From a virus, in the IMG/VR virus record IMGVR_UViG_3300042505_001173, positions 64,001 through 128,000 of that record: DNA of 64,000 nt; one strand, written 5' to 3'. A program made the translations under genes and the position numbers. Shown piece by piece: positions 3,491 through 41,900 of this stretch. The notes beneath the pieces were generated by a model. That model did no database searches, was not told where the DNA came from, and worked only from the letters and a program-made list of their open reading frames with translations. Each line of letters opens with the position of its first letter. The stretch's first letter is position 1.

Positions 3491-4129
3491 TTAAACTAAT
3501 TCTATATGTACTGGTTTTTTTGATTCCAATACAATTTGTTGTTCTACTACAGGGTTAACGTACGGTTCCGAATTTACTAACTTATTCCAAAACTCTGGAT
3601 CTTTCCACGATTTAACGATTGCATCACTAAATTTAATATCTTGAATACCAAAATTCCACCAACCGTTCCAATTACCCCAGGTTTTGTTTGTTGCTTCTGC
3701 CCAACCTGAAGTTGTTTCATGTACTCTTACAGAATGCAATGACATTGAATTTGCATTCTCGCCATTATTGAATTGCGTATTTTTAATTATTGCATCAATA
3801 GCATGATACATCATTAATGAAATTGCTTCAGCGCTAGGTGAGGTAGGTGTAATAATAACTCGAGGACAATGATTAGCAATCATATTTTTAAATGATTCAG
3901 GTTCTGCATCCCAAATTGTATAAGCATTATCAAACGATTTTACAAATTCACCGATGGTTGGTTTAAACAACCCAAAATCCATAACCATTTGACCATTATC
4001 TAATTTGTCACCCTGTACTACTACTTCGACGGAATACGTATGAGAGTGTATGCTACGTTTACAACGCTCGCTAGAGCAATTTCTAACGATATGCATATTA
4101 TTGAACTGAAATTGTTTTCTAATTAACAT
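3491..4129 (-). CDS. queD: 6-carboxy-5,6,7,8-tetrahydropterin synthase (QueD-like)
   Basis: HIVRNCSSERCKRSIHSHTY, GQMVMDFG, SPSAE, VRVHET. Confidence 0.85.
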   Translation of the reverse strand: MLIRKQFQFNNMHIVRNCSSERCKRSIHSHTYSVEVVVQGDKLDNGQMVMDFGLFKPTIGEFVKSFDNAYTIWDAEPESFKNMIANHCPRVIITPTSPSAEAISLMMYHAIDAIIKNTQFNNGENANSMSLHSVRVHETTSGWAEATNKTWGNWNGWWNFGIQDIKFSDAIVKSWKDPEFWNKLVNSEPYVNPVVEQQIVLESKKPVHIELV

Positions 4130-4133
4130 CGTT

Positions 4134-4508
4134 TTAACCCTCGATATGGTAGCTTAATACATCTGAATATCCTGGAGCGCTTACATCACCTTCAAATGTA
4201 CATTTACATAAGGAAACTTTAATAGTGTGAGGTCTATCAATCGTTTTTAGTACTCTTTCTTTTATCATATGACTAATAACGCTACACACGTCATAATAAA
4301 GATTTTTTGATTCTGCTAATAAGAAATGACGTAAACTGTACGAAGCTATTTCAGCACTATCAGTAATTAAACAATGATCCAGTGAATCAATAATTTGCAA
4401 ATATAACGCAGGCTCTACTACACGGTCAAACATTAATTCGATTTTTACAGAGCCACCTATATATTTGCTATGACCCATTTCAACGACATCTGATACAATA
4501 AAATTCAT
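4134..4508 (-). CDS. Hypothetical, possibly a degenerate QueD/T-fold paralog
   Basis: EMGH and IIDSLDHCLI resemble QueD His motifs; adjacent to queD. Confidence 0.45.
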   Translation of the reverse strand: MNFIVSDVVEMGHSKYIGGSVKIELMFDRVVEPALYLQIIDSLDHCLITDSAEIASYSLRHFLLAESKNLYYDVCSVISHMIKERVLKTIDRPHTIKVSLCKCTFEGDVSAPGYSDVLSYHIEG

Positions 4509-4687
4509 AACTGTTCCTGTTTACCTGGTACTACTGAAAGAGAGTTATGATCATAACTCGGTTTGATTATTTGGTTTTCTTCTTCATTATCCATAGGTCT
4601 TCGATCGTAAACAACGGTATCGATAATACCAACTACCATGATCGTGAATAAAACCCATAAAAGAAAAGTTTTTAAATCTGAGGCCAT
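4505..4687 (-). CDS. Small membrane protein
   Basis: N-terminal hydrophobic helix; AGGAG RBS. Confidence 0.6.
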   Translation of the reverse strand: MASDLKTFLLWVLFTIMVVGIIDTVVYDRRPMDNEEENQIIKPSYDHNSLSVVPGKQEQL

Positions 4688-19972: not shown

Positions 19973-21457
19973 CTAAAAACTGATACTTTCGTATCTTGGA
20001 GAGTTAACAACCTCCATCATCATACCTTCAGGTGATAAAATCTCATCTTGCTCACCTGTTATATACTTCAAGATATTTGGACTAAAACCTGAAATCATAC
20101 AGGTATTAGGAGTATTATGTACTACTGGAAAATTGCCAGAGTTAGCATTAACATTCCAGAATACTAACTTAGGAATTGTATATCCAGCAATTTCAAATGA
20201 CGATCTAATTGTTTCATAGAACGTTTCAACCGCTGAAGCTTTAATTTGACTACGAGTAATAGCATTAAATTCCATATCAGAAATGATATAAATTGTTCCA
20301 ACCATATCACTAGGTGACAACTGATTAGTAATAGCTGCTTGTAGAATTAATTTAAACACTGCTTCAAGGTCTGTTGACATACCCCATTCAGCGTGTGAAA
20401 GATTATGAACCTTTTCAAAGATATTATTACCTTTTAAATCTTGAATTCTTGGGGTTTCACTAAACGTAATGAATTTGTCACGATATGGACCTTTTGCTCG
20501 TTCAGCAAAATAAATTGCTAACGATATACAAACTTCCATTGGAAGACCTGACATTGAACCACTAACATCAGCTACAACGATAGCGTTACTATCAACATCA
20601 ATTTTTGGTAAGTTTTTCCATAAAATTTCTGCTTCATCTGGTTTAATGTCACTTGTCCAATTGTTTAAAATTTTACCAACGATTTGATATGGATATAAAG
20701 TACTAGCGTTAACATGAACTTTCCCGTCTTTAGCTAATGTAATAAATTCTTCATAACGGGTAGCATCATTTCTTGCAAATGCTTTGCGATGTTTTAGTAA
20801 ACATTGACTTGGTAACTTAGAATAAGTAATGGTATCCCATTGTTTAGCACTCATACGATTTTCAGCAACTTCAAGATATCTGTTCAAATTTGAACATAAT
20901 TTACGATAATCTTTTGATGATAGCCCAAAAGCTTTACGCGTTAAATTACCTAATCGGACTGATTCTTTACTTGAAGTATTGATACGTTTTAACCATTTAC
21001 CTAAAATTGAAATAGGTTGATTTGATGTGATACCCTCAAGATCTCTACGTGATTGATCTTTCATTAAACTAAAAGCATATGATTCACAAGGTGTACCGAC
21101 AACTGAATAAAGATCATCCCATCTTCCGTATTCAGCAACGAGGTCTAATAGGTTTTTTGTTTGATCTGGGTAGTTACGAGCAAGCCATTCTAATTGAATA
21201 CGAAATGGTCTTCTTTGACCTTGACCACCACGAATATCTCTAAACATGTACATTAACCGTACAGCAATTGTCTTTTCTTGTGCAAATGCACGTGTAAACA
21301 AACTTAAAATTTCACTTTCGGTTCTTGATCTAATTGATCCACCTTGAGCAAAGAAATCAACACAATTGTTTAAAGATGAATGGTTAGTAATAGCACCGTT
21401 TTGTGTTGTTGAATGATTCATTTGATTTGAAATCGCTGATAAGAATTTTTCGGTCAT
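19973..21457 (-). CDS. Ro60/TROVE-like protein with C-terminal vWA domain (DUF2828 type)
   Basis: TQNGA, RDIRGGQG, YGRWDDL, GKWL, TLYPY; MIDAS DVSGSM...STD...ISDMEF, VFWN; start set at MTEKF after GGAG. Confidence 0.85.
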   Translation of the reverse strand: MTEKFLSAISNQMNHSTTQNGAITNHSSLNNCVDFFAQGGSIRSRTESEILSLFTRAFAQEKTIAVRLMYMFRDIRGGQGQRRPFRIQLEWLARNYPDQTKNLLDLVAEYGRWDDLYSVVGTPCESYAFSLMKDQSRRDLEGITSNQPISILGKWLKRINTSSKESVRLGNLTRKAFGLSSKDYRKLCSNLNRYLEVAENRMSAKQWDTITYSKLPSQCLLKHRKAFARNDATRYEEFITLAKDGKVHVNASTLYPYQIVGKILNNWTSDIKPDEAEILWKNLPKIDVDSNAIVVADVSGSMSGLPMEVCISLAIYFAERAKGPYRDKFITFSETPRIQDLKGNNIFEKVHNLSHAEWGMSTDLEAVFKLILQAAITNQLSPSDMVGTIYIISDMEFNAITRSQIKASAVETFYETIRSSFEIAGYTIPKLVFWNVNANSGNFPVVHNTPNTCMISGFSPNILKYITGEQDEILSPEGMMMEVVNSPRYESISF

Positions 21458-21467
21458 TTTGTACTCC

Positions 21468-22198
21468 AAGACATTAATTGTTAAATTGCGGATACTGTCT
21501 TTATAACTAGATGCATAAGTCATTTTCAATAATGAGTTGTTTAATTGCTGGAAGCATCTATAAGTGTTTAGGTTTTACCCTAAAAATATAAACTTGAAAC
21601 AAACTTATATTTTTAAGATCGAATGTTCCAACCAATACACCTCTAAGTCTGTCAGGACTTAGTTTATTTCATGGAGACTATTTTTAATCGCTGTATGTGC
21701 GGTTATTGGAACACCCAATTTTTAAAAATATAGACCTGTTTTTAGCAACCCACATTCATTCCAATAAGATTAGATATGTAATTGCTGTAAGTGAGTTTTA
21801 TAACAGGTCTACATCTGTACATCAATATGAGGTTTTTCACGATGATCGATCACTTATTGTGACCATCAAACGTTTAACCTCTCTGCATTAAAATTATATG
21901 CTGTACTACACCTACTTGGAGGTGCCATCTTAAACCAAGATGGAGCAAGATCTTATTAACATTTTCGATTATTGCTGTTAAGATCTTTGATAAAAGAGCG
22001 GTCACGATCTAAATTTAACATTTGCAGTGTTTATAAAATTGCTGTTGAGATCGTTGATTTTACTAATAACTTTCAAGACCTTATTCACGTTTTCGAGTAT
22101 GAGTCGATTATTGTTGCAGTTAAGGTCTTACGTAAACTAGATTCTGTTTATGTGTTCAGATTAGAGGTCTGATATTAAATGGTTGCTGTTCGAATCTA
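21468..22198 (-). ncRNA. Array of 8-9 divergent hairpin RNA units with ACAGCAA motif (Y-RNA-like candidates)
   Basis: Units with terminal inverted stems at 22138-22198, 22075-22129, 22004-22054, 21947-21987, 21731-21811, 21624-21713, 21508-21560, 21468-21501; partial unit ~21817-21906. Confidence 0.75.
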
Positions 22199-22205
22199 TA
22201 AAACG

Positions 22206-22234
22206 TATTATAATGATCTAAAAAAATTAAATCA
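22206..22234 (-). promoter_or_regulatory. Sigma70-type promoter for the hairpin array and TROVE gene
   Basis: TTGATT-17 nt-TATAAT; predicted +1 falls at the start of the first hairpin. Confidence 0.8.
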
Positions 22235-22248
22235 ACTATATCTTTAAA

Positions 22249-30144: not shown

Positions 30145-30183
30145 AAAAAAAAGACTTAACTGAAAAAACAGTAAGTCTTTTTT
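30145..30183 (-). terminator. Terminator of the tRNA-like RNA
   Basis: AAGACTTA...TAAGTCTT with A/U tracts on both sides. Confidence 0.8.
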
Positions 30184-30188
30184 AATAC

Positions 30189-30302
30189 AAGATTCATTTT
30201 AATTTCAATTATTCTACCAACTGAACTACATAACCTTTCGGTTATGGTGGGAATCGAACCCACGACACATTGATTCCGATTATATATTGCTGTTAGAATC
30301 TT
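30189..30302 (-). ncRNA. YrlA-like RNA: ACAGCAA stem enclosing a circularly permuted tRNA-like domain
   Basis: AAGATTC-TA-ACAGCAA...T arm GTGGG-TTCGATT-CCCAC, closed acceptor CATAACC-GAAA-GGTTATG, D arm TAGTTCAGTTGGTAGAAT...GAATCTT. Confidence 0.85.
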
Positions 30303-30315
30303 AACTTCAAATACA

Positions 30316-30344
30316 ATTATAATATGTTATATAGTATTGATCAA
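30316..30344 (-). promoter_or_regulatory. Sigma70-type promoter of the YrlA-like RNA
   Basis: TTGATC-17 nt-TATAAT. Confidence 0.8.
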
Positions 30345-30428: not shown

Positions 30429-31628
30429 TTAATAATTAATTTCAATTAACGGAAATAGCAATCTAAATGCTGTACCGTGGTTTGATTCAGCTGTATTTGA
30501 GTCGACGATAATATGACCATTAGCGTCATGTACCATACCGCTAACGGTTGACAATCCTAAGCCTGTACCTTCACCAATAGGTTTTGTAGTAAAAAATGGA
30601 TCAAAAATATGATCAATTACAGTTTGATCAATACCTGTACCAGTATCTAGAACACGTAATTCAATATAATCATTTGAAATAATATGTTGAGCACACGATG
30701 TACAAATTTGATTATGAATATTGACTTGTTTTAATGAAACTACAATAGTACCACCATTTTTCATGGAATCACGAGCATTAATAATCAAATTAGTTAAAAT
30801 TTGATGTAAATCAATAGCATCTATTTGAATATCAAGATAGTTGTCGACATTTGTTTCAAGGTGAAACCTACTAGTTAATGCTGGACCTACCATTGATGCA
30901 ACATCGTATATTACTTCTTGTGTTGGTCGTATTTCTATATCTTTATCAGCTGAGTTTTGACGTGAATAAGCTAGCATTTTACTAATCAAGCTAGATGCGC
31001 GTTTACTAGCAACGTTAACTGCGTTTACATTGTATATAAAGTCAGCTTTGCGTTGTTCATCCGGACAATCTTCTGCTAATAATAAGTTGAGTTCGTTGTA
31101 ACCTAATATACAGTTTAAAATATTATTAAAATCGTGTGCTATACCTGCTGTTAACCGACTAAGGCTTTCGATTTTTTGCATCTGGTTAACTTGTTTGTTT
31201 AATAATAGTAAAGCGGCTTTATTTTTTTCACGCTCAGTAATATCTTTAAACACACCCATATAGCCAATTATATTACCGTCATCGTCATTAATTGTAGATG
31301 GTCTAACAGATACTTGATGTTTACCTAACGTCATTGTAAACTCTTGACAGCTTGATAATTTTTTGATTAGTTCTTTTTGATTGTTAGTATTTTTATGAAA
31401 CATAACAATATTAACGCCAATCATTTTATTAACGTTAAAAGATGGGAATTTTTTTTGAATCTCTGATTCTGCAGCAGTAAAAATTTTTACTGCGCTATCA
31501 TTATAATAAACAACGTTGCGATCTGCATCTGTAATAACAACAGCATCGTTTAATGAATTTAAACCTTTTGTTAGACGAAAATTACATAGACTGAGATTTT
31601 CATTGGGTGTAGCTGTTATTGTTGGCAT
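30429..31628 (-). CDS. PAS-domain sensor histidine kinase (PAS-HisKA-HATPase)
   Basis: H-box GIAHDFNN, N-box NLIINARD, DTGTG, FDPFFTTK, GTGLGL; Aer2-like PAS with FHKN. Confidence 0.93.
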   Translation of the reverse strand: MPTITATPNENLSLCNFRLTKGLNSLNDAVVITDADRNVVYYNDSAVKIFTAAESEIQKKFPSFNVNKMIGVNIVMFHKNTNNQKELIKKLSSCQEFTMTLGKHQVSVRPSTINDDDGNIIGYMGVFKDITEREKNKAALLLLNKQVNQMQKIESLSRLTAGIAHDFNNILNCILGYNELNLLLAEDCPDEQRKADFIYNVNAVNVASKRASSLISKMLAYSRQNSADKDIEIRPTQEVIYDVASMVGPALTSRFHLETNVDNYLDIQIDAIDLHQILTNLIINARDSMKNGGTIVVSLKQVNIHNQICTSCAQHIISNDYIELRVLDTGTGIDQTVIDHIFDPFFTTKPIGEGTGLGLSTVSGMVHDANGHIIVDSNTAESNHGTAFRLLFPLIEINY

Positions 31629-32662: not shown

Positions 32663-32736
32663 TGGAAGGCCTGAGAGGAATTGAACCCCTACTAAATCCG
32701 TCAAAGGGACTTGTGCAACCACTACACCACAGGCCA
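32663..32736 (-). tRNA. tRNA-Gln(UUG)
   Basis: Cloverleaf; AGTCC-CTTTGAC-GGATT anticodon arm; encoded CCA; U1:U72 mismatch. Confidence 0.85.
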
Positions 32737-32750
32737 ATAATATTGATTAA

Positions 32751-32930
32751 TTATAATGCATCTTCTTCATTATAATCAACAGGTAATTCACGTTTTTTGT
32801 GTTTATGCATTCTTGATTCCGAACAATAAGCACATGCCCCATGGTTGCGACATGTACGATCAAATGCTTTTGCATTATAAAAAGACTTACGATGATCTTT
32901 TCTGTTTGGATAATTTTTATCGAATGACAT
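32751..32930 (-). CDS. Small basic protein with C/H motif
   Basis: MSFDK...DRTCRNHGACAYC. Confidence 0.65.
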   Translation of the reverse strand: MSFDKNYPNRKDHRKSFYNAKAFDRTCRNHGACAYCSESRMHKHKKRELPVDYNEEDAL

Positions 32931-32952
32931 AATAATTACCATATAACGTGTA

Positions 32953-33029
32953 TGGTCTCTCATATTCGGTTCGAACGAATGGCCTCACCGTCCCAAGCGG
33001 TGCGCTCTACCAGACTGAGCTAATGAGAG
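32953..33029 (-). tRNA. tRNA-Pro(UGG)
   Basis: CTCTCAT/ATGAGAG acceptor, CACCG-CTTGGGA-CGGTG, TTCGAAC loop, ACCA end. Confidence 0.93.
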
Positions 33030-33035
33030 AATAAC

Positions 33036-33111
33036 TGATCAGAGTGGAGAGAATCAAACTCCCTTAACTAGTGGATTTAAGACTAGCGATCAACCAATGA
33101 AACACACTCTA
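33036..33111 (-). tRNA. Atypical or pseudo tRNA with 9-nt anticodon loop
   Basis: TAGAGTG/CACTCTG acceptor, CTAGT-CTTAAATCC-ACTAG, GGGAG-TTTGATT-CTCTC; weak D arm; ends TCA. Confidence 0.55.
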
Positions 33112-38987: not shown

Positions 38988-41900
38988 ATGGCTGTATCAG
39001 ATACAATAATCCGGTTTACAAATAATACAAAACCGACAATTAGCGTTAAAGAAAATAGAGTAGATAACACATCAACCTCACTATTTTTATATGGTAAATC
39101 GACATTAATTCCGTCAAAGTTCATTAATACTAATTTATTGTATATACTTGAGAACTTCTGTAATGATACTACACCATTAAAACCAATTGAAGGTCAAATC
39201 TGGTGTGACACTAGCGATTCGGATGCTGGTAATGAGCATGGTAGATTAAAAGTTAACATTAAAGATAATAGTGGTGGGATACATTTCCACGACATTGCTG
39301 GTACAGTAATGGATGTTGATGGTAATTTACGACATACAGGTCAAATTGAAGCGGTTAATGATTATAACGATATACCTCAAACTGATAAAGCTGTTTACCC
39401 TGAAAACCCTGTATATAAAAAGTACCTAACAACTAAAAAACATTGTGATGAAAACTACTTATCTGGTGAATATTCTACTGATAATTCTACATTTACTGTT
39501 AGAGATAACAGAAAAATAAAAACACCTATAGCGATAAGTTTCACAAAGCCGAGTGTTTATGACGATGATAGATTCAAATTAATCAATAAAAAGTATTTAG
39601 ATACGCAGTTTTTAACTGGTCAAAATTTTAGTGATCACTTTATTATACCAACAGATAAAAAATTATATTATTCAGCGGCGTGCGTGATTGATTTACCGTA
39701 CCAGTTAATAACGAAAAAATATTGTCTTGATCAAGATGCTGCTGCTCGCGTAATTTTAGACGCTCTAATGCAGGATCCTAACAATGGGTTAGAAAAATAT
39801 GTAATTGAAGCTGAAGCGGCAGCGGAAGCTGCAAGAATAGCAGCTGAAGAAGCTTGGGCGGCAGTAAATTCTGTACCACCACAAACAATACCGGCTGTAA
39901 TAACAATCACTGGTTCAAATACTTGTACAGTTGACACATCAATACCAACCGTAACTGGGTATACAGGTACAACTGTACCACCACAAGTTACTGGTACATT
40001 AACAGATTTAGCTGATATGGCAACCGGTGCAACGTTTACAGTTAAAGAAGGTACAACTGAGTTAACTGTAACACGCAACCTTAAAAATTGGACATTAGAT
40101 ACAGCTACATTAGGTTGGACGGTACCGTCCAACCATACATTAGTAGTTACACGTACAGAATCAAACGGAACACCTTATTCTAGCACCAGTACAGCACAAA
40201 TTGTTATTACTGCTGCAGCCACTACTACTGACACATCAATACCGACTGTAACTGGTTATACAGGTACAACTGTACCACTACAAGTTACCGGTACATTAAC
40301 AGATTTAGCTGATATGGCAACGGGGGTAACATTTACGGTTAAAGAAGGTACGACCGATTTAACTAGCCACGTAACACGCAACCTTAAAAATTGGACATTA
40401 GATACAGCTACATTAGGTTGGACGGTACCGTCCACCCATACATTAGTAGTTACACGTACAGAATCAAACGGAACACCTTATTCTAGCACCAGTACAGATC
40501 AAATTGTTATTACTGCTGCAGCTATTATTACTATACCTATTACAATGATGGATGTATCTATTCCAACGGTAAATTCGTATGTAGGTGTTGGTACACACCC
40601 AACTATAGATGGATTGATGTCTACTGAACCAGCATTAGGTTCTGGGACAACATTCACAATTAAAATCGACGATGATATTGTTCCCCAAGCAAAAATATTA
40701 GTGGCTCCAATAGTAGGTACAGGTGTGGTATGGTCAATTGATACGACATACCTTGGATGGGTCCAAAACAGTATACATGATGTACAGGTCAAACGTATTG
40801 AGGATCCGACTCACTCATTCGACAGTACTTCAAGTAATCAAATACAAATTACATCATTGATTATACCTACAGTTAACGCTCAGGTTGTATCATCGACTGC
40901 TGTGACCATTACCATTACTGGTACAATTGGTGATGCTGGATTTGCTGCAGCGCCAGCTAACGATAATATCAAAATTGTGTTTAACAACTTAACGTATTAT
41001 AGATACAATACAACTAACGCTAAGGATTCAAGTAAGTTAACCGTAACAGGTGGTAATTGGACACTCACAGATGTACCAAACCCACCAGTAGGGCAATGGG
41101 ACGTTATTGCTACCCGTAACGATAATGCATTACAGATCGATAGTACAACAAACGAAATTACAGTTGCTGCATTGAAAGATTCAGTTTTACCAACAGTTAC
41201 AGATCTAACATTAAAAAATACCTCTGCAACAATGGCTAATGTAGTGGTTGCTGGTACTGTTGGGTTTAAAAACTTGGCAGACTCATCGAGCACGTTTGCT
41301 GTTGTTGTAACTAGTTCAACCGGTACAGTAATTACAGGTACATTATTGGTTACGGGCGTGAATTGGACATATACGATACCTACTATTAACACTGGTGACA
41401 TATATAATGTAGTAGCGACACGTACAGATGAATTTAATAATACGTTTGTAGATAACACCACTGATGAATTAGAAATACAACATTTATTAGATATAGCTGT
41501 ACCAACGGTTACACCAGTTACTGTAAATGGTGGTTTCACTGTAGATGTTATAGGTACAGTAGGCAGTAAAAGATTATTAGATTCAAATAGTACATTTAAT
41601 GTAGTTGTAAAAAATACGTCTTCACCTTTTGCAGAGGAAACAGGTACATTAACATATGACACAACCGGGATAAATTGGACTTACCGTCTTACAGATATAC
41701 CTGAACGAGTAACATATAACGTAACAGCAACTCGAACAGATGAGTACGGGTATAAGTATGTTGACACTACATCTAATGAACTAGTTGTTAACGCTGCTAT
41801 TATTGCACCGCCTGCAATAAAGATGTTTATGGACCCACCGAGTACTGGCGCGTATTACAGTTATACTGTACCTGCAGGAAAAACATCAATTGATGTAACA

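What the first reader, a model, noticed from the sequence alone, without database searches (positions are those of the whole stretch)
30145..30344. Stand-alone circularly permuted tRNA mimic carrying the same ACAGCAA handle
Seen: a 114-nt RNA with its own promoter and terminator. The order is terminal stem AAGATTC + ACAGCAA, TCAAT, T arm, a 7-bp acceptor-like stem closed by GAAA, D arm, ATTGA, GAATCTT. The acceptor end is sealed and the anticodon loop is replaced by the handle stem, so it cannot be charged as transcribed. Known: this T-AS-D permutation is the YrlA Y-RNA architecture. Inference: it is a ligand of the Ro-like protein 8.7 kb away, and it independently supports the array units being Y-RNA analogues. 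It could be a decoy for tRNA-targeting defence nucleases or a tether for RNA decay/repair enzymes. A tRNA scanner could miss it or call it a pseudogene.
Basis: partly seen in the sequence, partly recalled or inferred. Interest (0 to 1): 0.88.

Follow-up and report, generated by a model that had tools for sequence, protein, structure and literature searches.

The report
Phage tRNA-shaped partner RNA, Ro60-like protein
A marine T4-like phage encodes a 114-base RNA shaped like a tRNA with its ends sealed and its anticodon loop replaced by a conserved "handle"; across phages and bacteria this handle travels with a Ro60-shaped protein, which points to an undescribed relative of the Ro60/Y-RNA particles.

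Summary
Window 30302-30189 (minus strand) encodes a 114-nt RNA: a 7-bp closing helix, ACAGCAA, a 5-bp stem, a variable loop, a T arm, a 7-bp acceptor stem sealed by GAAA, and a D arm. A -10 box lies upstream and a strong terminator downstream. ARAGORN misses it. Rfam YrlA matches only the tRNA-like core (41 bits, cut-off 69).

It is a conserved family. An ortholog in a related phage keeps the fold, and 22 phage RNAs covary in every helix.

The handle is tied to the DUF2828/DUF7788 protein at 19973-21457, whose model folds like Ro60:
- In this genome the RNA's model otherwise finds only the hairpins in front of that gene.
- In 40 phage loci, handle units lie on the gene's strand 118:14.
- An RNA-only pattern over 185,579 species genomes found 71 loci; 53 carry the gene, all on the same strand.
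- RNAs with the handle go with DUF7788 and never TROVE. YrlA-like RNAs without it do the opposite.

Best reading: a Y-RNA-like partner of a Ro60-like protein, and a new variant of a known kind. Binding, expression and function remain untested. This scan had already noted the same system in at least 44 other genomes. I found no paper or Rfam family describing it.

The parts
30316..30344 (-). Promoter-like site TTGATC-17-TATAAT. The -10 box ends 13 nt before the RNA's closing helix.
   Evidence: 10 of 12 matches, but such sites are no commoner here than in shuffles. The ortholog L122 keeps TATAAT at the same 13-nt distance but has no good -35.
30189..30302 (-). The 114-nt RNA: closing helix, ACAGCAA handle and a circularly permuted tRNA-like body (T arm, sealed acceptor stem, D arm).
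   Evidence: Sequence. Folding gives z about -3. Rfam YrlA 41.2 bits. Own family model R1 105.5 bits. Ortholog L122:760-869.
30287..30302 (-). 5' half of the handle: arm AAGAUUC (30302-30296), UA, and ACAGCAA (30293-30287). It pairs with GAAUCUU at 30195-30189.
   Evidence: In 22 family members C, G, C, A of the motif are invariant, while all 7 helix pairs show compensatory changes.
30211..30263 (-). tRNA elbow module: T arm 30263-30247, acceptor stem of 7 bp closed by GAAA 30246-30229, U8 A9, and D arm 30226-30211.
   Evidence: alignment to YrlA. Covariation in the T and acceptor stems.
30147..30183 (-). Intrinsic terminator hairpin followed by a U run. It reads as a terminator on both strands.
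   Evidence: -14.3 kcal/mol, z -5.5, 0 of 200 shuffles fold as well.
19973..21457 (-). Gene for the DUF2828 + DUF7788 protein (494 aa from the ATG that homologs support). It is a Ro60-like helical-repeat ring plus a vWA domain with an intact MIDAS motif, and is the inferred protein partner.
   Evidence: Pfam. Homologs start at this ATG. AF2 model. Foldseek matches to Ro60. D297, S299, S301, T362 and D394 are invariant in A1. It is the only DUF7788 gene in the record, and the record has no TROVE gene.
21508..22235 (-). Leader of the DUF2828 gene. TTGATT-17-TATAAT lies at 22235-22207, followed by hairpin units with the same kind of closing helix and (A)C(A/U)GCAA motif: 22198-22138, 22130-22074, 22054-22004, 21987-21947, 21811-21731 and 21560-21508.
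   Evidence: Sequence, motif count and stem scan. Three of these units are the only other matches of model R1 in the 147.6-kb genome.

Best explanation
This is a small non-coding RNA of the Y-RNA kind, made for the phage's own Ro60-like protein (DUF2828/DUF7788, 19973-21457).

Proposed assembly. The RNA is transcribed from its own sigma-70-type promoter and ends at an intrinsic terminator. Its 5' and 3' ends pair into a short helix that starts (A/U)AG(A/G). Together with the adjacent unpaired ACAGCAA, this helix forms the docking site ('handle') for the ring protein. Canonical Y RNAs dock on Ro60 in the same way, through a terminal helix and a GGUCCGA/CGAA-type motif.

Proposed role of the body. 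The rest of the RNA is a complete tRNA core (acceptor/T coaxial stack, D/T elbow, variable loop, 5-bp anticodon stem). It has no anticodon loop and no free acceptor end. On the particle it would be displayed as a tRNA look-alike, and host tRNA enzymes such as TruB and Dus probably modify it. It would either tether the ring to a tRNA- or RNA-handling host factor (PNPase in the known Ro60 particles) or hold such a factor away from real tRNAs.

Small handle hairpins in front of the protein gene would share the same protein.

Shown here: the anatomy, the conservation and covariation, the genomic coupling of handle and protein, and the Ro60-like predicted fold.

Inferred: transcription limits, binding, modification and the downstream partner.
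For: 1. Architecture and conservation. Rfam YrlA aligns to the tRNA-like core (41.2 bits, E 1.6e-7). The ortholog in a phage whose protein is 81% identical is conserved over exactly the RNA's span, and it keeps the acceptor and D stems through C-G to U-G and G-U to A-U changes. In 22 phage members, 95.8% of cells are paired against 71% in shuffles and about 41% when slid. 17 of 21 pairs show double changes, and 0 of 500 shuffles reach this.

2. Same handle as the protein's leader. Model R1 was built without the leader units. Searched over both strands of the 147.6-kb genome, it finds the RNA (105.5 bits) and then only three leader hairpins of the DUF2828 gene.

3. Protein-side test. In 80 IMG/VR DUF2828 loci, all 96 R1 matches lie on the gene's strand. 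In 40 full loci, handle units number 118 on the gene's strand and 14 opposite, peaking within 1 kb upstream (44) and just downstream (23). At least 15 loci carry the same handle + T + sealed acceptor + D design.

4. RNA-side test. A pattern of ACAGCAA, T arm and D arm over 185,579 species genomes gave 71 loci. 53 have a DUF2828 ORF within the stretch of 8 kb or less, 53 of 53 on the RNA's strand, mostly 50-500 nt downstream of the RNA.

5. Partition. 19 of 21 records with handle-bearing tRNA-like RNAs encode DUF7788 and 0 of 21 encode TROVE. Of 9 records with sealed-acceptor RNAs lacking the handle, 0 encode DUF7788 and 7 encode TROVE (Fisher p 4e-6 and 2e-5).

6. Protein. AF2 pLDDT is 88 and pTM 0.88. 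The 12 matches with E below 0.001 that Foldseek lists are all Ro60/TROVE entries, over about 545 columns at TM about 0.6. The MIDAS residues are invariant.

7. Cultured phages show the same pairing: Archie, JH2, P100 and KP2025.

8. Precedent. Rsr-YrlA (PMC4201824). Thermus phage phiLo Ro60 binds two Y-like RNAs and host PNPase (PMC12135203).
Against:
- Binding is inferred from co-occurrence only.
- The RNA is 8.7 kb from the gene with plus-strand genes between them, whereas most relatives have it adjacent.
- Close relatives L121, L123 and L124 lack a tRNA-like member within 10 kb and keep only small hairpins, so this RNA is dispensable for the system.
- The protein has no detectable sequence similarity to Ro60, even with a profile.
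- The record has no RtcB or RNA ligase (the Rnl1 search also rang in no control genome, so that one is weak), so a repair role has no local support.
- The co-occurrence counts use records that may be related to one another.
- The conserved ends could instead be processing signals.
Confidence: 0.75

Rival explanations
1. After transcription, host RNase P cuts between the GAAA loop and the 5' strand of the acceptor stem (30236/30235) and the 3' end gains CCA, as in M. smegmatis YrlA. This would give a two-piece tRNA-like RNA with a real acceptor end, held together by the handle helix. It could then interact with CCA-recognising factors or even be charged. This refines the main reading rather than excluding it.
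For: [quoted passage not shown] M. smegmatis YrlA is cut and gains CCA in vivo (PMC4201824, read). Seven-bp sealed stems are the norm in the family.
Against: The loop is only 4 nt here and 3-8 nt in relatives. Loop and stem sequences vary freely, so no aminoacylation identity is conserved. There is no anticodon. Salmonella YrlA and Deinococcus Yrn1 are not cut (PMC4201824).
Confidence: 0.15
2. A free-standing tRNA decoy that works without the DUF2828 protein. It would soak up a host tRNA-directed defence nuclease or a tRNA-modifying or tRNA-binding factor through its elbow. On this reading the handle is only a clamp or a processing signal.
For: It has its own promoter and terminator 8.7 kb from the protein gene and lies near the phage tRNA cluster (tRNAs at 32663-33111). 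A relative has real tRNA genes in the same slot. The full tRNA core is kept.
Against: The handle motif is invariant, and across hundreds of loci it is coupled to DUF2828 in strand and position. A mere clamp would not need ACAGCAA. The RNA lacks the anticodon loop that most known tRNA-targeting nucleases cut (general knowledge).
Confidence: 0.08
3. A cis-acting leader (attenuator) for the downstream DUF6321 gene at 30080-29436: promoter, structured RNA, terminator, gene.
For: The layout of promoter, RNA, terminator and then a gene 66 nt later resembles a riboswitch-type leader. The ortholog also precedes the homologous gene.
Against: In the ortholog there is no terminator between the RNA and the gene. 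In relative L121 the same gene is preceded by ordinary tRNA genes. In other genomes the same RNA design sits next to DUF2828, not DUF6321.
Confidence: 0.03
4. A decayed remnant: the junction of two tandem tRNA genes, or a tRNA pseudogene without function.
For: It lies in a tRNA-rich region. Junctions of tandem tRNAs give the same T-then-D order and were picked up by the same DNA pattern.
Against: The acceptor halves pair perfectly and are closed by a tetraloop. The fold is kept by compensatory changes in more than 20 phages, and the handle is conserved. Conservation stops exactly at the RNA's ends.
Confidence: 0.02

Closest known systems
YrlA, the bacterial and mycobacteriophage tRNA-like Y RNA bound by Ro60/Rsr (Rfam RF02553; Chen et al. 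2014, PMC4201824)
   Same: Both have a circularly permuted tRNA-like body (T arm, sealed acceptor stem, D arm) closed by a helix of the 5' and 3' ends. Both are encoded on the same strand as a ring-shaped Ro60-type protein, and genomes often carry several such RNAs. The Rfam model aligns over the whole core.
   Different: There is no GNCGAAN0-1G/CGAA motif; ACAGCAA next to the 5' arm takes its place. The score is 41 bits against a cut-off of 69. The partner is DUF2828/DUF7788, with no sequence similarity to TROVE. In my sample the two RNA types and the two protein types never mix. The RNA lies 8.7 kb from the gene, not within 4 kb.
Thermus phage phiLo Ro60 with Yrl1/Yrl2 (PDB 9KOP, 9L5Y; Hu et al. 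2025, PMC12135203)
   Same: A phage-encoded Ro60-type ring with its own small partner RNAs encoded upstream. That particle binds host PNPase and damps it, which is a worked example of what a phage Ro particle can do. 9KOP and 9L5Y are among the structural matches of the protein here.
   Different: The phiLo RNAs use the CGAA motif and, as described, have no tRNA-like body. The phiLo protein is reported as an Ro60 homolog. The protein here matches no solved structure by sequence.
Class I RNAs of dictyostelid amoebae (Rfam RF01414; Kjellin et al. 2021, PMC7919456)
   Same: Both start with AAG, have a short covarying helix joining the 5' and 3' ends, carry a conserved motif directly after the 5' arm that contains ACAGCAA (Rfam consensus), have a variable remainder, and end in CUGU-like letters. 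The dictyostelid model's best matches in 13 DUF2828 phage records fall within 600 nt of the gene on its strand for 8 of 16 hits (p below 1e-10).
   Different: Class I RNAs are 42-65 nt with no tRNA body. All phage matches are below the Rfam cut-off (at most 30 bits against 41.5), and the model does not hit this RNA or the leader units significantly in this genome. The one known binder is an RRM protein, Rnp1A. Whether dictyostelids have DUF2828 could not be tested here.
Circularly permuted tRNA genes of the red alga Cyanidioschyzon merolae (recalled from memory, not checked here)
   Same: The 3' half of the tRNA is encoded before the 5' half, with the acceptor ends joined by a short linker.
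   Different: Those genes yield functional tRNAs with an anticodon loop after circularisation and processing. Here the anticodon loop is absent, replaced by a 22/9-nt internal loop and the handle helix.

Membership tests
YrlA (Rfam RF02553; Chen et al. 2014) | tRNA-like module in the order T arm, acceptor-like hairpin, D arm, enclosed by pairing of the flanks | tested here: met
   cmscan alignment over model positions 1-114, with the core at high posterior. Sequence reading.
YrlA (Rfam RF02553; Chen et al. 2014) | Score at or above the Rfam gathering threshold (69 bits) | tested here: not met
   41.2 bits. Both outer helices of the model align with non-pairs or deletions.
YrlA (Rfam RF02553; Chen et al. 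2014) | GNCGAAN0-1G (CGAA) Ro60-binding motif near the 5' end | tested here: not met
   The motif is absent from the 5' 45 nt. The only CGAA is formed by the acceptor stem and its GAAA loop, and it is not kept in the ortholog, whose loop is UUAC.
YrlA (Rfam RF02553; Chen et al. 2014) | Encoded within about 4 kb of, and on the same strand as, a TROVE-domain Ro60 ortholog | tested here: not met
   No TROVE match in the 147.6-kb record or in the protein. The nearest Ro60-like gene is DUF2828, 8.7 kb away on the same strand.
   AAGAUUC, then UA, then ACAGCAA, with GAAUCUU as the 3' arm. Same layout in 22 aligned members.
   General rule shown.
   Complex prediction takes proteins only, and no pull-down data exist.
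Dictyostelid Class I RNA (Rfam RF01414) | 42-65 nt; AAG start; short closing helix; 11-nt motif after the 5' arm; CUGU end; score at or above 41.5 bits | tested here: not met
   The RNA is 114 nt with a tRNA body. It has no RF01414 match at E up to 10. It shares only AAG, the helix, 7 of the 11 motif letters and a CUUGU end.
tRNA (Rfam RF00005) | Cloverleaf with anticodon loop and free acceptor end | tested here: not met
   Not called by ARAGORN or the Rfam tRNA model. The acceptor stem is sealed by GAAA and there is no anticodon loop.
Ro60/TROVE proteins (for the partner protein) | TROVE domain recognisable by sequence (Pfam PF05731) | tested here: not met
   No match at E up to 10. No PDB sequence match with the single sequence or the profile.
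Ro60/TROVE proteins (for the partner protein) | Helical-repeat ring closed by a vWA domain with a MIDAS motif | tested here: met
   AF2 model with pLDDT 88. Full-length Foldseek matches to 1YVR, 2I91, 9KOP, 2NVO and 9L5Y. D297, S299, S301, T362 and D394 are invariant.

The most novel reading that the evidence does not exclude
The handle (AAG start, closing helix, ACAGCAA) may be the signature of one ancient RNA family. That family would include the dictyostelid Class I RNAs, abundant RNAs of unknown mechanism reported as unique to social amoebae. On this reading Class I RNAs would be Y-RNA-like partners of a DUF2828-type Ro60 paralogue, or descend from viral ones. This phage RNA would then be the same module carrying a tRNA body as cargo.
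Probability: 0.1. Interest if true: 0.9.

Novelty: new variant of a known kind. Interest (0 to 1): 0.7.

Why it matters
Ro60/Y-RNA particles are known from animals, some bacteria and a few phages, and what their tRNA-like RNAs do is still open. The data here point to a second and much more widespread version, with a different protein family and a different RNA docking motif.

- The protein occurs in 711 of 50,697 cultured-phage records.
- I checked the RNAs in Escherichia phage JH2 (Felix O1 type), Listeria phage P100, Mycobacterium phage Archie and Klebsiella phage KP2025. They also occur in many gut bacteria.
- This gives easy laboratory systems for asking what a tRNA-shaped Y RNA is for, including whether phages use it against host RNA decay or tRNA-directed defences.
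- It also explains elements that tRNA scanners miss inside phage tRNA clusters.

This window adds one specific point: a member can be encoded far from the protein gene as its own transcription unit.

Tried and rejected
- blastn of the RNA region against cultured phages found no match. The flanking genes hit only short pieces of marine phages.
- PDB sequence searches with the protein and with its profile found nothing relevant. Only the fold comparison links it to Ro60.
- RF01414 over this genome gave no significant match and none on the leader units. The weak match at 21508-21558 (16 bits, E 7) is only a lead.
- RtcB, Rnl2-type and Rnl1-type RNA ligases were not found in the 147.6-kb record, which CheckV estimates as 54% complete. 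The Rnl1 search rang nowhere, so it is uninformative.
- Relatives L121, L123 and L124 have no tRNA-like member within 10 kb.
- Chen 2014 supplements, Avesson 2011 and Aspegren 2004 are not held, so I could not see which 22 phages were reported or which other proteins bind Class I RNA.
- Paper searches for DUF2828 and for ACAGCAA gave nothing relevant.
- The genes after DUF2828 in ten bacterial loci are heterogeneous: WYL, Cas3, AAA-ATPase/PD-(D/E)XK, beta-lactamase and FliD-like. None is a recurrent partner.
- Rejected readings: functional permuted tRNA gene (no anticodon loop), pseudogene (covariation), leader of the DUF6321 gene (not kept in relatives).
- My first loose stem scan of the genome was too noisy to use: 51 hits against 21 in shuffles.

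Full report
**What is there.** The window is part of a 147.6-kb IMG/VR virus record. Relatives carry T4-type portal, baseplate and Gp23 genes next to ribonucleotide reductase, DHFR and thymidylate synthase, and DNA matches are to marine phages. The order is:
- arm AAGAUUC, then UA, then ACAGCAA
- a 13-nt linker
- UCAAU
- variable loop GUGUC
- a T arm with the loop UUCGAUU
- a 7-bp acceptor stem closed by GAAA
- U8 and A9
- a D arm with the loop AGUUGGUA
- A26, then AUUGA
- a 9-nt linker
- arm GAAUCUU

All nucleotides that build the tRNA elbow are present. The anticodon loop is replaced by an internal loop plus the closing helix, and the acceptor end is sealed.

A -10 box (TATAAT, 30321-30316) with a TTGATC -35 lies 13 nt upstream. 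On its own this is weak, because such matches are as common in shuffles. A 15-bp hairpin with a U run follows at 30183-30147 (-14.3 kcal/mol, z -5.5). ARAGORN and the Rfam tRNA model do not call the element.

**Is it more than chance?**
- Rfam YrlA matches at 41.2 bits (E 1.6e-7 in the region, 6e-9 in the genome). This is below the 69-bit cut-off, and only the tRNA-like core contributes.
- A phage whose DUF2828 protein is 81% identical has an ortholog in the same slot, upstream of the DUF6321 gene. The two are 80% identical over exactly the RNA's span and not alignable outside it. Changes keep the acceptor and D stems (C-G to U-G, G-U to A-U). The tetraloop differs, and the motif reads ACUGCAA.
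- Two pattern scans of IMG/VR gave many more RNAs of the same design. In an alignment of 22 of them, 95.8% of cells are paired against 71% in shuffles and about 41% when partners are slid. 17 of 21 pairs show changes on both sides, all 7 pairs of the closing helix covary, and C, G, C, A of the motif are invariant.

**The handle and the protein.** I built a covariance model (R1) from those 22 RNAs.
- Within this genome, on both strands, R1 finds the RNA (105.5 bits). Its only other matches are three hairpins in the leader of the DUF2828 gene, at window 22074-22130, 22003-22055 and 21946-21988. The leader itself shows TTGATT-17-TATAAT followed by units with (A/U)AGA-type helices and (A)C(A/U)GCAA.
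- From the protein side, in 80 IMG/VR loci chosen only for a DUF2828 relative (36-81% identity), all 96 R1 matches lie on the gene's strand. A simple helix-plus-motif scan of the 40 full-length loci finds 118 units on that strand and 14 on the other. They peak within 1 kb upstream (44) and just after the gene (23). At least 15 loci hold the full handle + T + sealed acceptor + D design.
- From the RNA side, a pattern made only of ACAGCAA, a T arm and a D arm, run over one genome for each of 185,579 prokaryote species, returned 71 loci. In 53 of them a DUF2828 ORF lies in the stretch of 8 kb or less, in all 53 on the RNA's strand, and usually 50-500 nt downstream of the RNA.
- The two RNA types and the two protein types partition cleanly. 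Of 21 virus records with handle-bearing tRNA-like RNAs, 19 encode DUF7788 and none TROVE; the two exceptions are small fragments. Of 9 records whose sealed-acceptor RNAs lack the handle, none encodes DUF7788 and 7 encode TROVE.
- The same pairing is visible in cultured phages. Mycobacterium phage Archie has a gene annotated 'Ro-like RNA binding protein' followed by two units. Escherichia phage JH2 (Felix O1 type) has four units, Listeria phage P100 three and Klebsiella phage KP2025 five.
- The outer 4-5 pairs of the helix tend to be genome-specific: AGAU/AGAC here, AGACC in JH2, UAGGAA in P100, UGGAC in Archie. This fits either recognition by the cognate protein or duplication within a genome.

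**The protein.** Pfam gives DUF2828 plus DUF7788 and no TROVE. Homologs start at the ATG at 21457. Neither the sequence nor a 26-member profile finds any Ro60 in the PDB. The AF2 model is confident (pLDDT 88, pTM 0.88). The 12 matches with E below 0.001 that Foldseek lists are all Ro60/TROVE entries over the full length, at TM about 0.6 and E down to 1.6e-8. The vWA half keeps an invariant DxSxS...T...D MIDAS set. So 'Ro-like' is supported as a fold, not as family membership by sequence. It is the only such gene in the record, and there is no TROVE gene.

**How it most likely works.** By analogy with Ro60, which grips the terminal helix and a 5'-strand motif of Y RNAs (PMC4201824), the closing helix plus ACAGCAA is the docking site for the DUF2828 ring. 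The tRNA-shaped body is then the displayed part.
- In Salmonella and Deinococcus, such bodies are modified by TruB and DusA, and the particle includes PNPase (PMC4201824).
- In Thermus phage phiLo, the Ro60/Y-like RNA particle binds host PNPase and damps it (PMC12135203).

My best guess is a phage particle that engages a host RNA-decay or tRNA-handling factor through a tRNA look-alike. This step, like binding itself, is inference. The record has no RtcB or RNA ligase, so a repair role has no local support. The RNA is not essential to the system, because close relatives keep only the small hairpins within 10 kb of the gene and one has ordinary tRNA genes in the slot.

**Rivals.**
- RNase P cleavage at the sealed acceptor followed by CCA addition, as in M. 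smegmatis YrlA, is possible because the stem is 7 bp. The loops are tiny and unconserved, which argues against it.
- A protein-independent decoy does not explain the invariant motif or its coupling to DUF2828.
- A leader for the DUF6321 gene is contradicted by relatives.
- A pseudogene or tandem-tRNA junction is contradicted by the covariation.

**Comparison with what is known.** The RNA works like YrlA but fails three of four defining tests: Rfam score, the CGAA-type motif, and a TROVE neighbour within 4 kb. I therefore file it as a new variant rather than a member.

The handle has the same design as dictyostelid Class I RNAs: an AAG start, a short covarying helix, a motif containing ACAGCAA right after the 5' arm, a variable remainder and a CUGU-like end (PMC7919456; Rfam consensus). 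The dictyostelid model's best matches in DUF2828 phage genomes land beside the gene far more often than chance allows, with 8 of 16 hits within 600 nt on the same strand. All those scores are below the Rfam cut-off, and I could not test whether dictyostelids have the protein. I keep this as a low-probability bold reading.

**Novelty and earlier notes.** I found no paper on DUF2828 as an RNA-binding protein or on the motif, and no Rfam family covers the handle. Chen et al. searched only genomes annotated with TROVE proteins. This scan has already noted the same system in at least 44 other genomes, with follow-up agents reaching the same reading. One later check put the bold reading at 6 in 100. 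Those are unchecked AI notes. The tests cited above were run here independently, and I reached the Class I resemblance and the DUF2828 coupling before reading the notes.

Noticed in passing
window 30429-31628 (-): A phage-encoded PAS + HisKA + HATPase_c histidine-kinase-like protein (399 aa) lies directly upstream of the RNA. This is an unusual gene for a T4-like phage. No response regulator was looked for.
   Followed up: no
window 33039-33111 (-): A third tRNA-like element next to tRNA-Pro and tRNA-Gln scores exactly at the Rfam tRNA cut-off (29.0 bits), with non-pairs in the D stem. ARAGORN does not call it.
   Followed up: no
window 21508-21560 (-): The last handle unit (UAGAUGC, then UUCCAGCAA, closed by GCAUCUA) lies 51-103 nt upstream of the ATG of the DUF2828 gene at 21457, inside the longer TTG-started ORF that is not supported by homologs. 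It gave the weak Rfam match to Dictyostelium Class I RNA (16 bits).
   Followed up: partly
L031:10147-10316 and L236:13211-13380: A 170-nt family member in which a complete small handle unit is nested in place of the loop of the sealed acceptor stem: an RNA within an RNA.
   Followed up: no
L300 (Klebsiella phage KP2025) 2414-2845: The record annotates a 432-nt 'tRNA-Arg-TCT' that overlaps the start of the DUF2828 CDS. This is probably a scanner artefact or a tRNA with an insert. Five unannotated handle RNAs follow the gene at 4060-4608.
   Followed up: partly
L121:230-810: In the relative whose protein is 82% identical, the slot that holds the tRNA mimic here is filled with four ordinary-looking tRNA genes. 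The mimic therefore occupies a tRNA-gene slot.
   Followed up: partly
L123:18193-21342 and L124:12168-15317: In a freshwater relative, the T4-type portal gene carries an intein (Portal_T4, Intein_splicing, Portal_T4).
   Followed up: no
L301-L371 (bacterial and archaeal MAG contigs): The RNA plus DUF2828 pair also occurs in MAGs labelled Clostridia, Lachnospiraceae, Akkermansia, Treponema, Methanobrevibacter and others. Downstream neighbours vary (WYL regulator, Cas3, AAA-ATPase/PD-(D/E)XK). Whether these are prophages or chromosomal islands was not checked.
   Followed up: partly
window 39932-40522: Two 303-bp tandem copies, 92% alike, are reported by Tandem Repeats Finder. I did not check which reading frame holds them.
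   Followed up: no
window 30147-30183: The terminator hairpin's own stem starts AAGAC and ends GUCUU, like the handle helices, but has no ACAGCAA. This may be coincidence.
   Followed up: no
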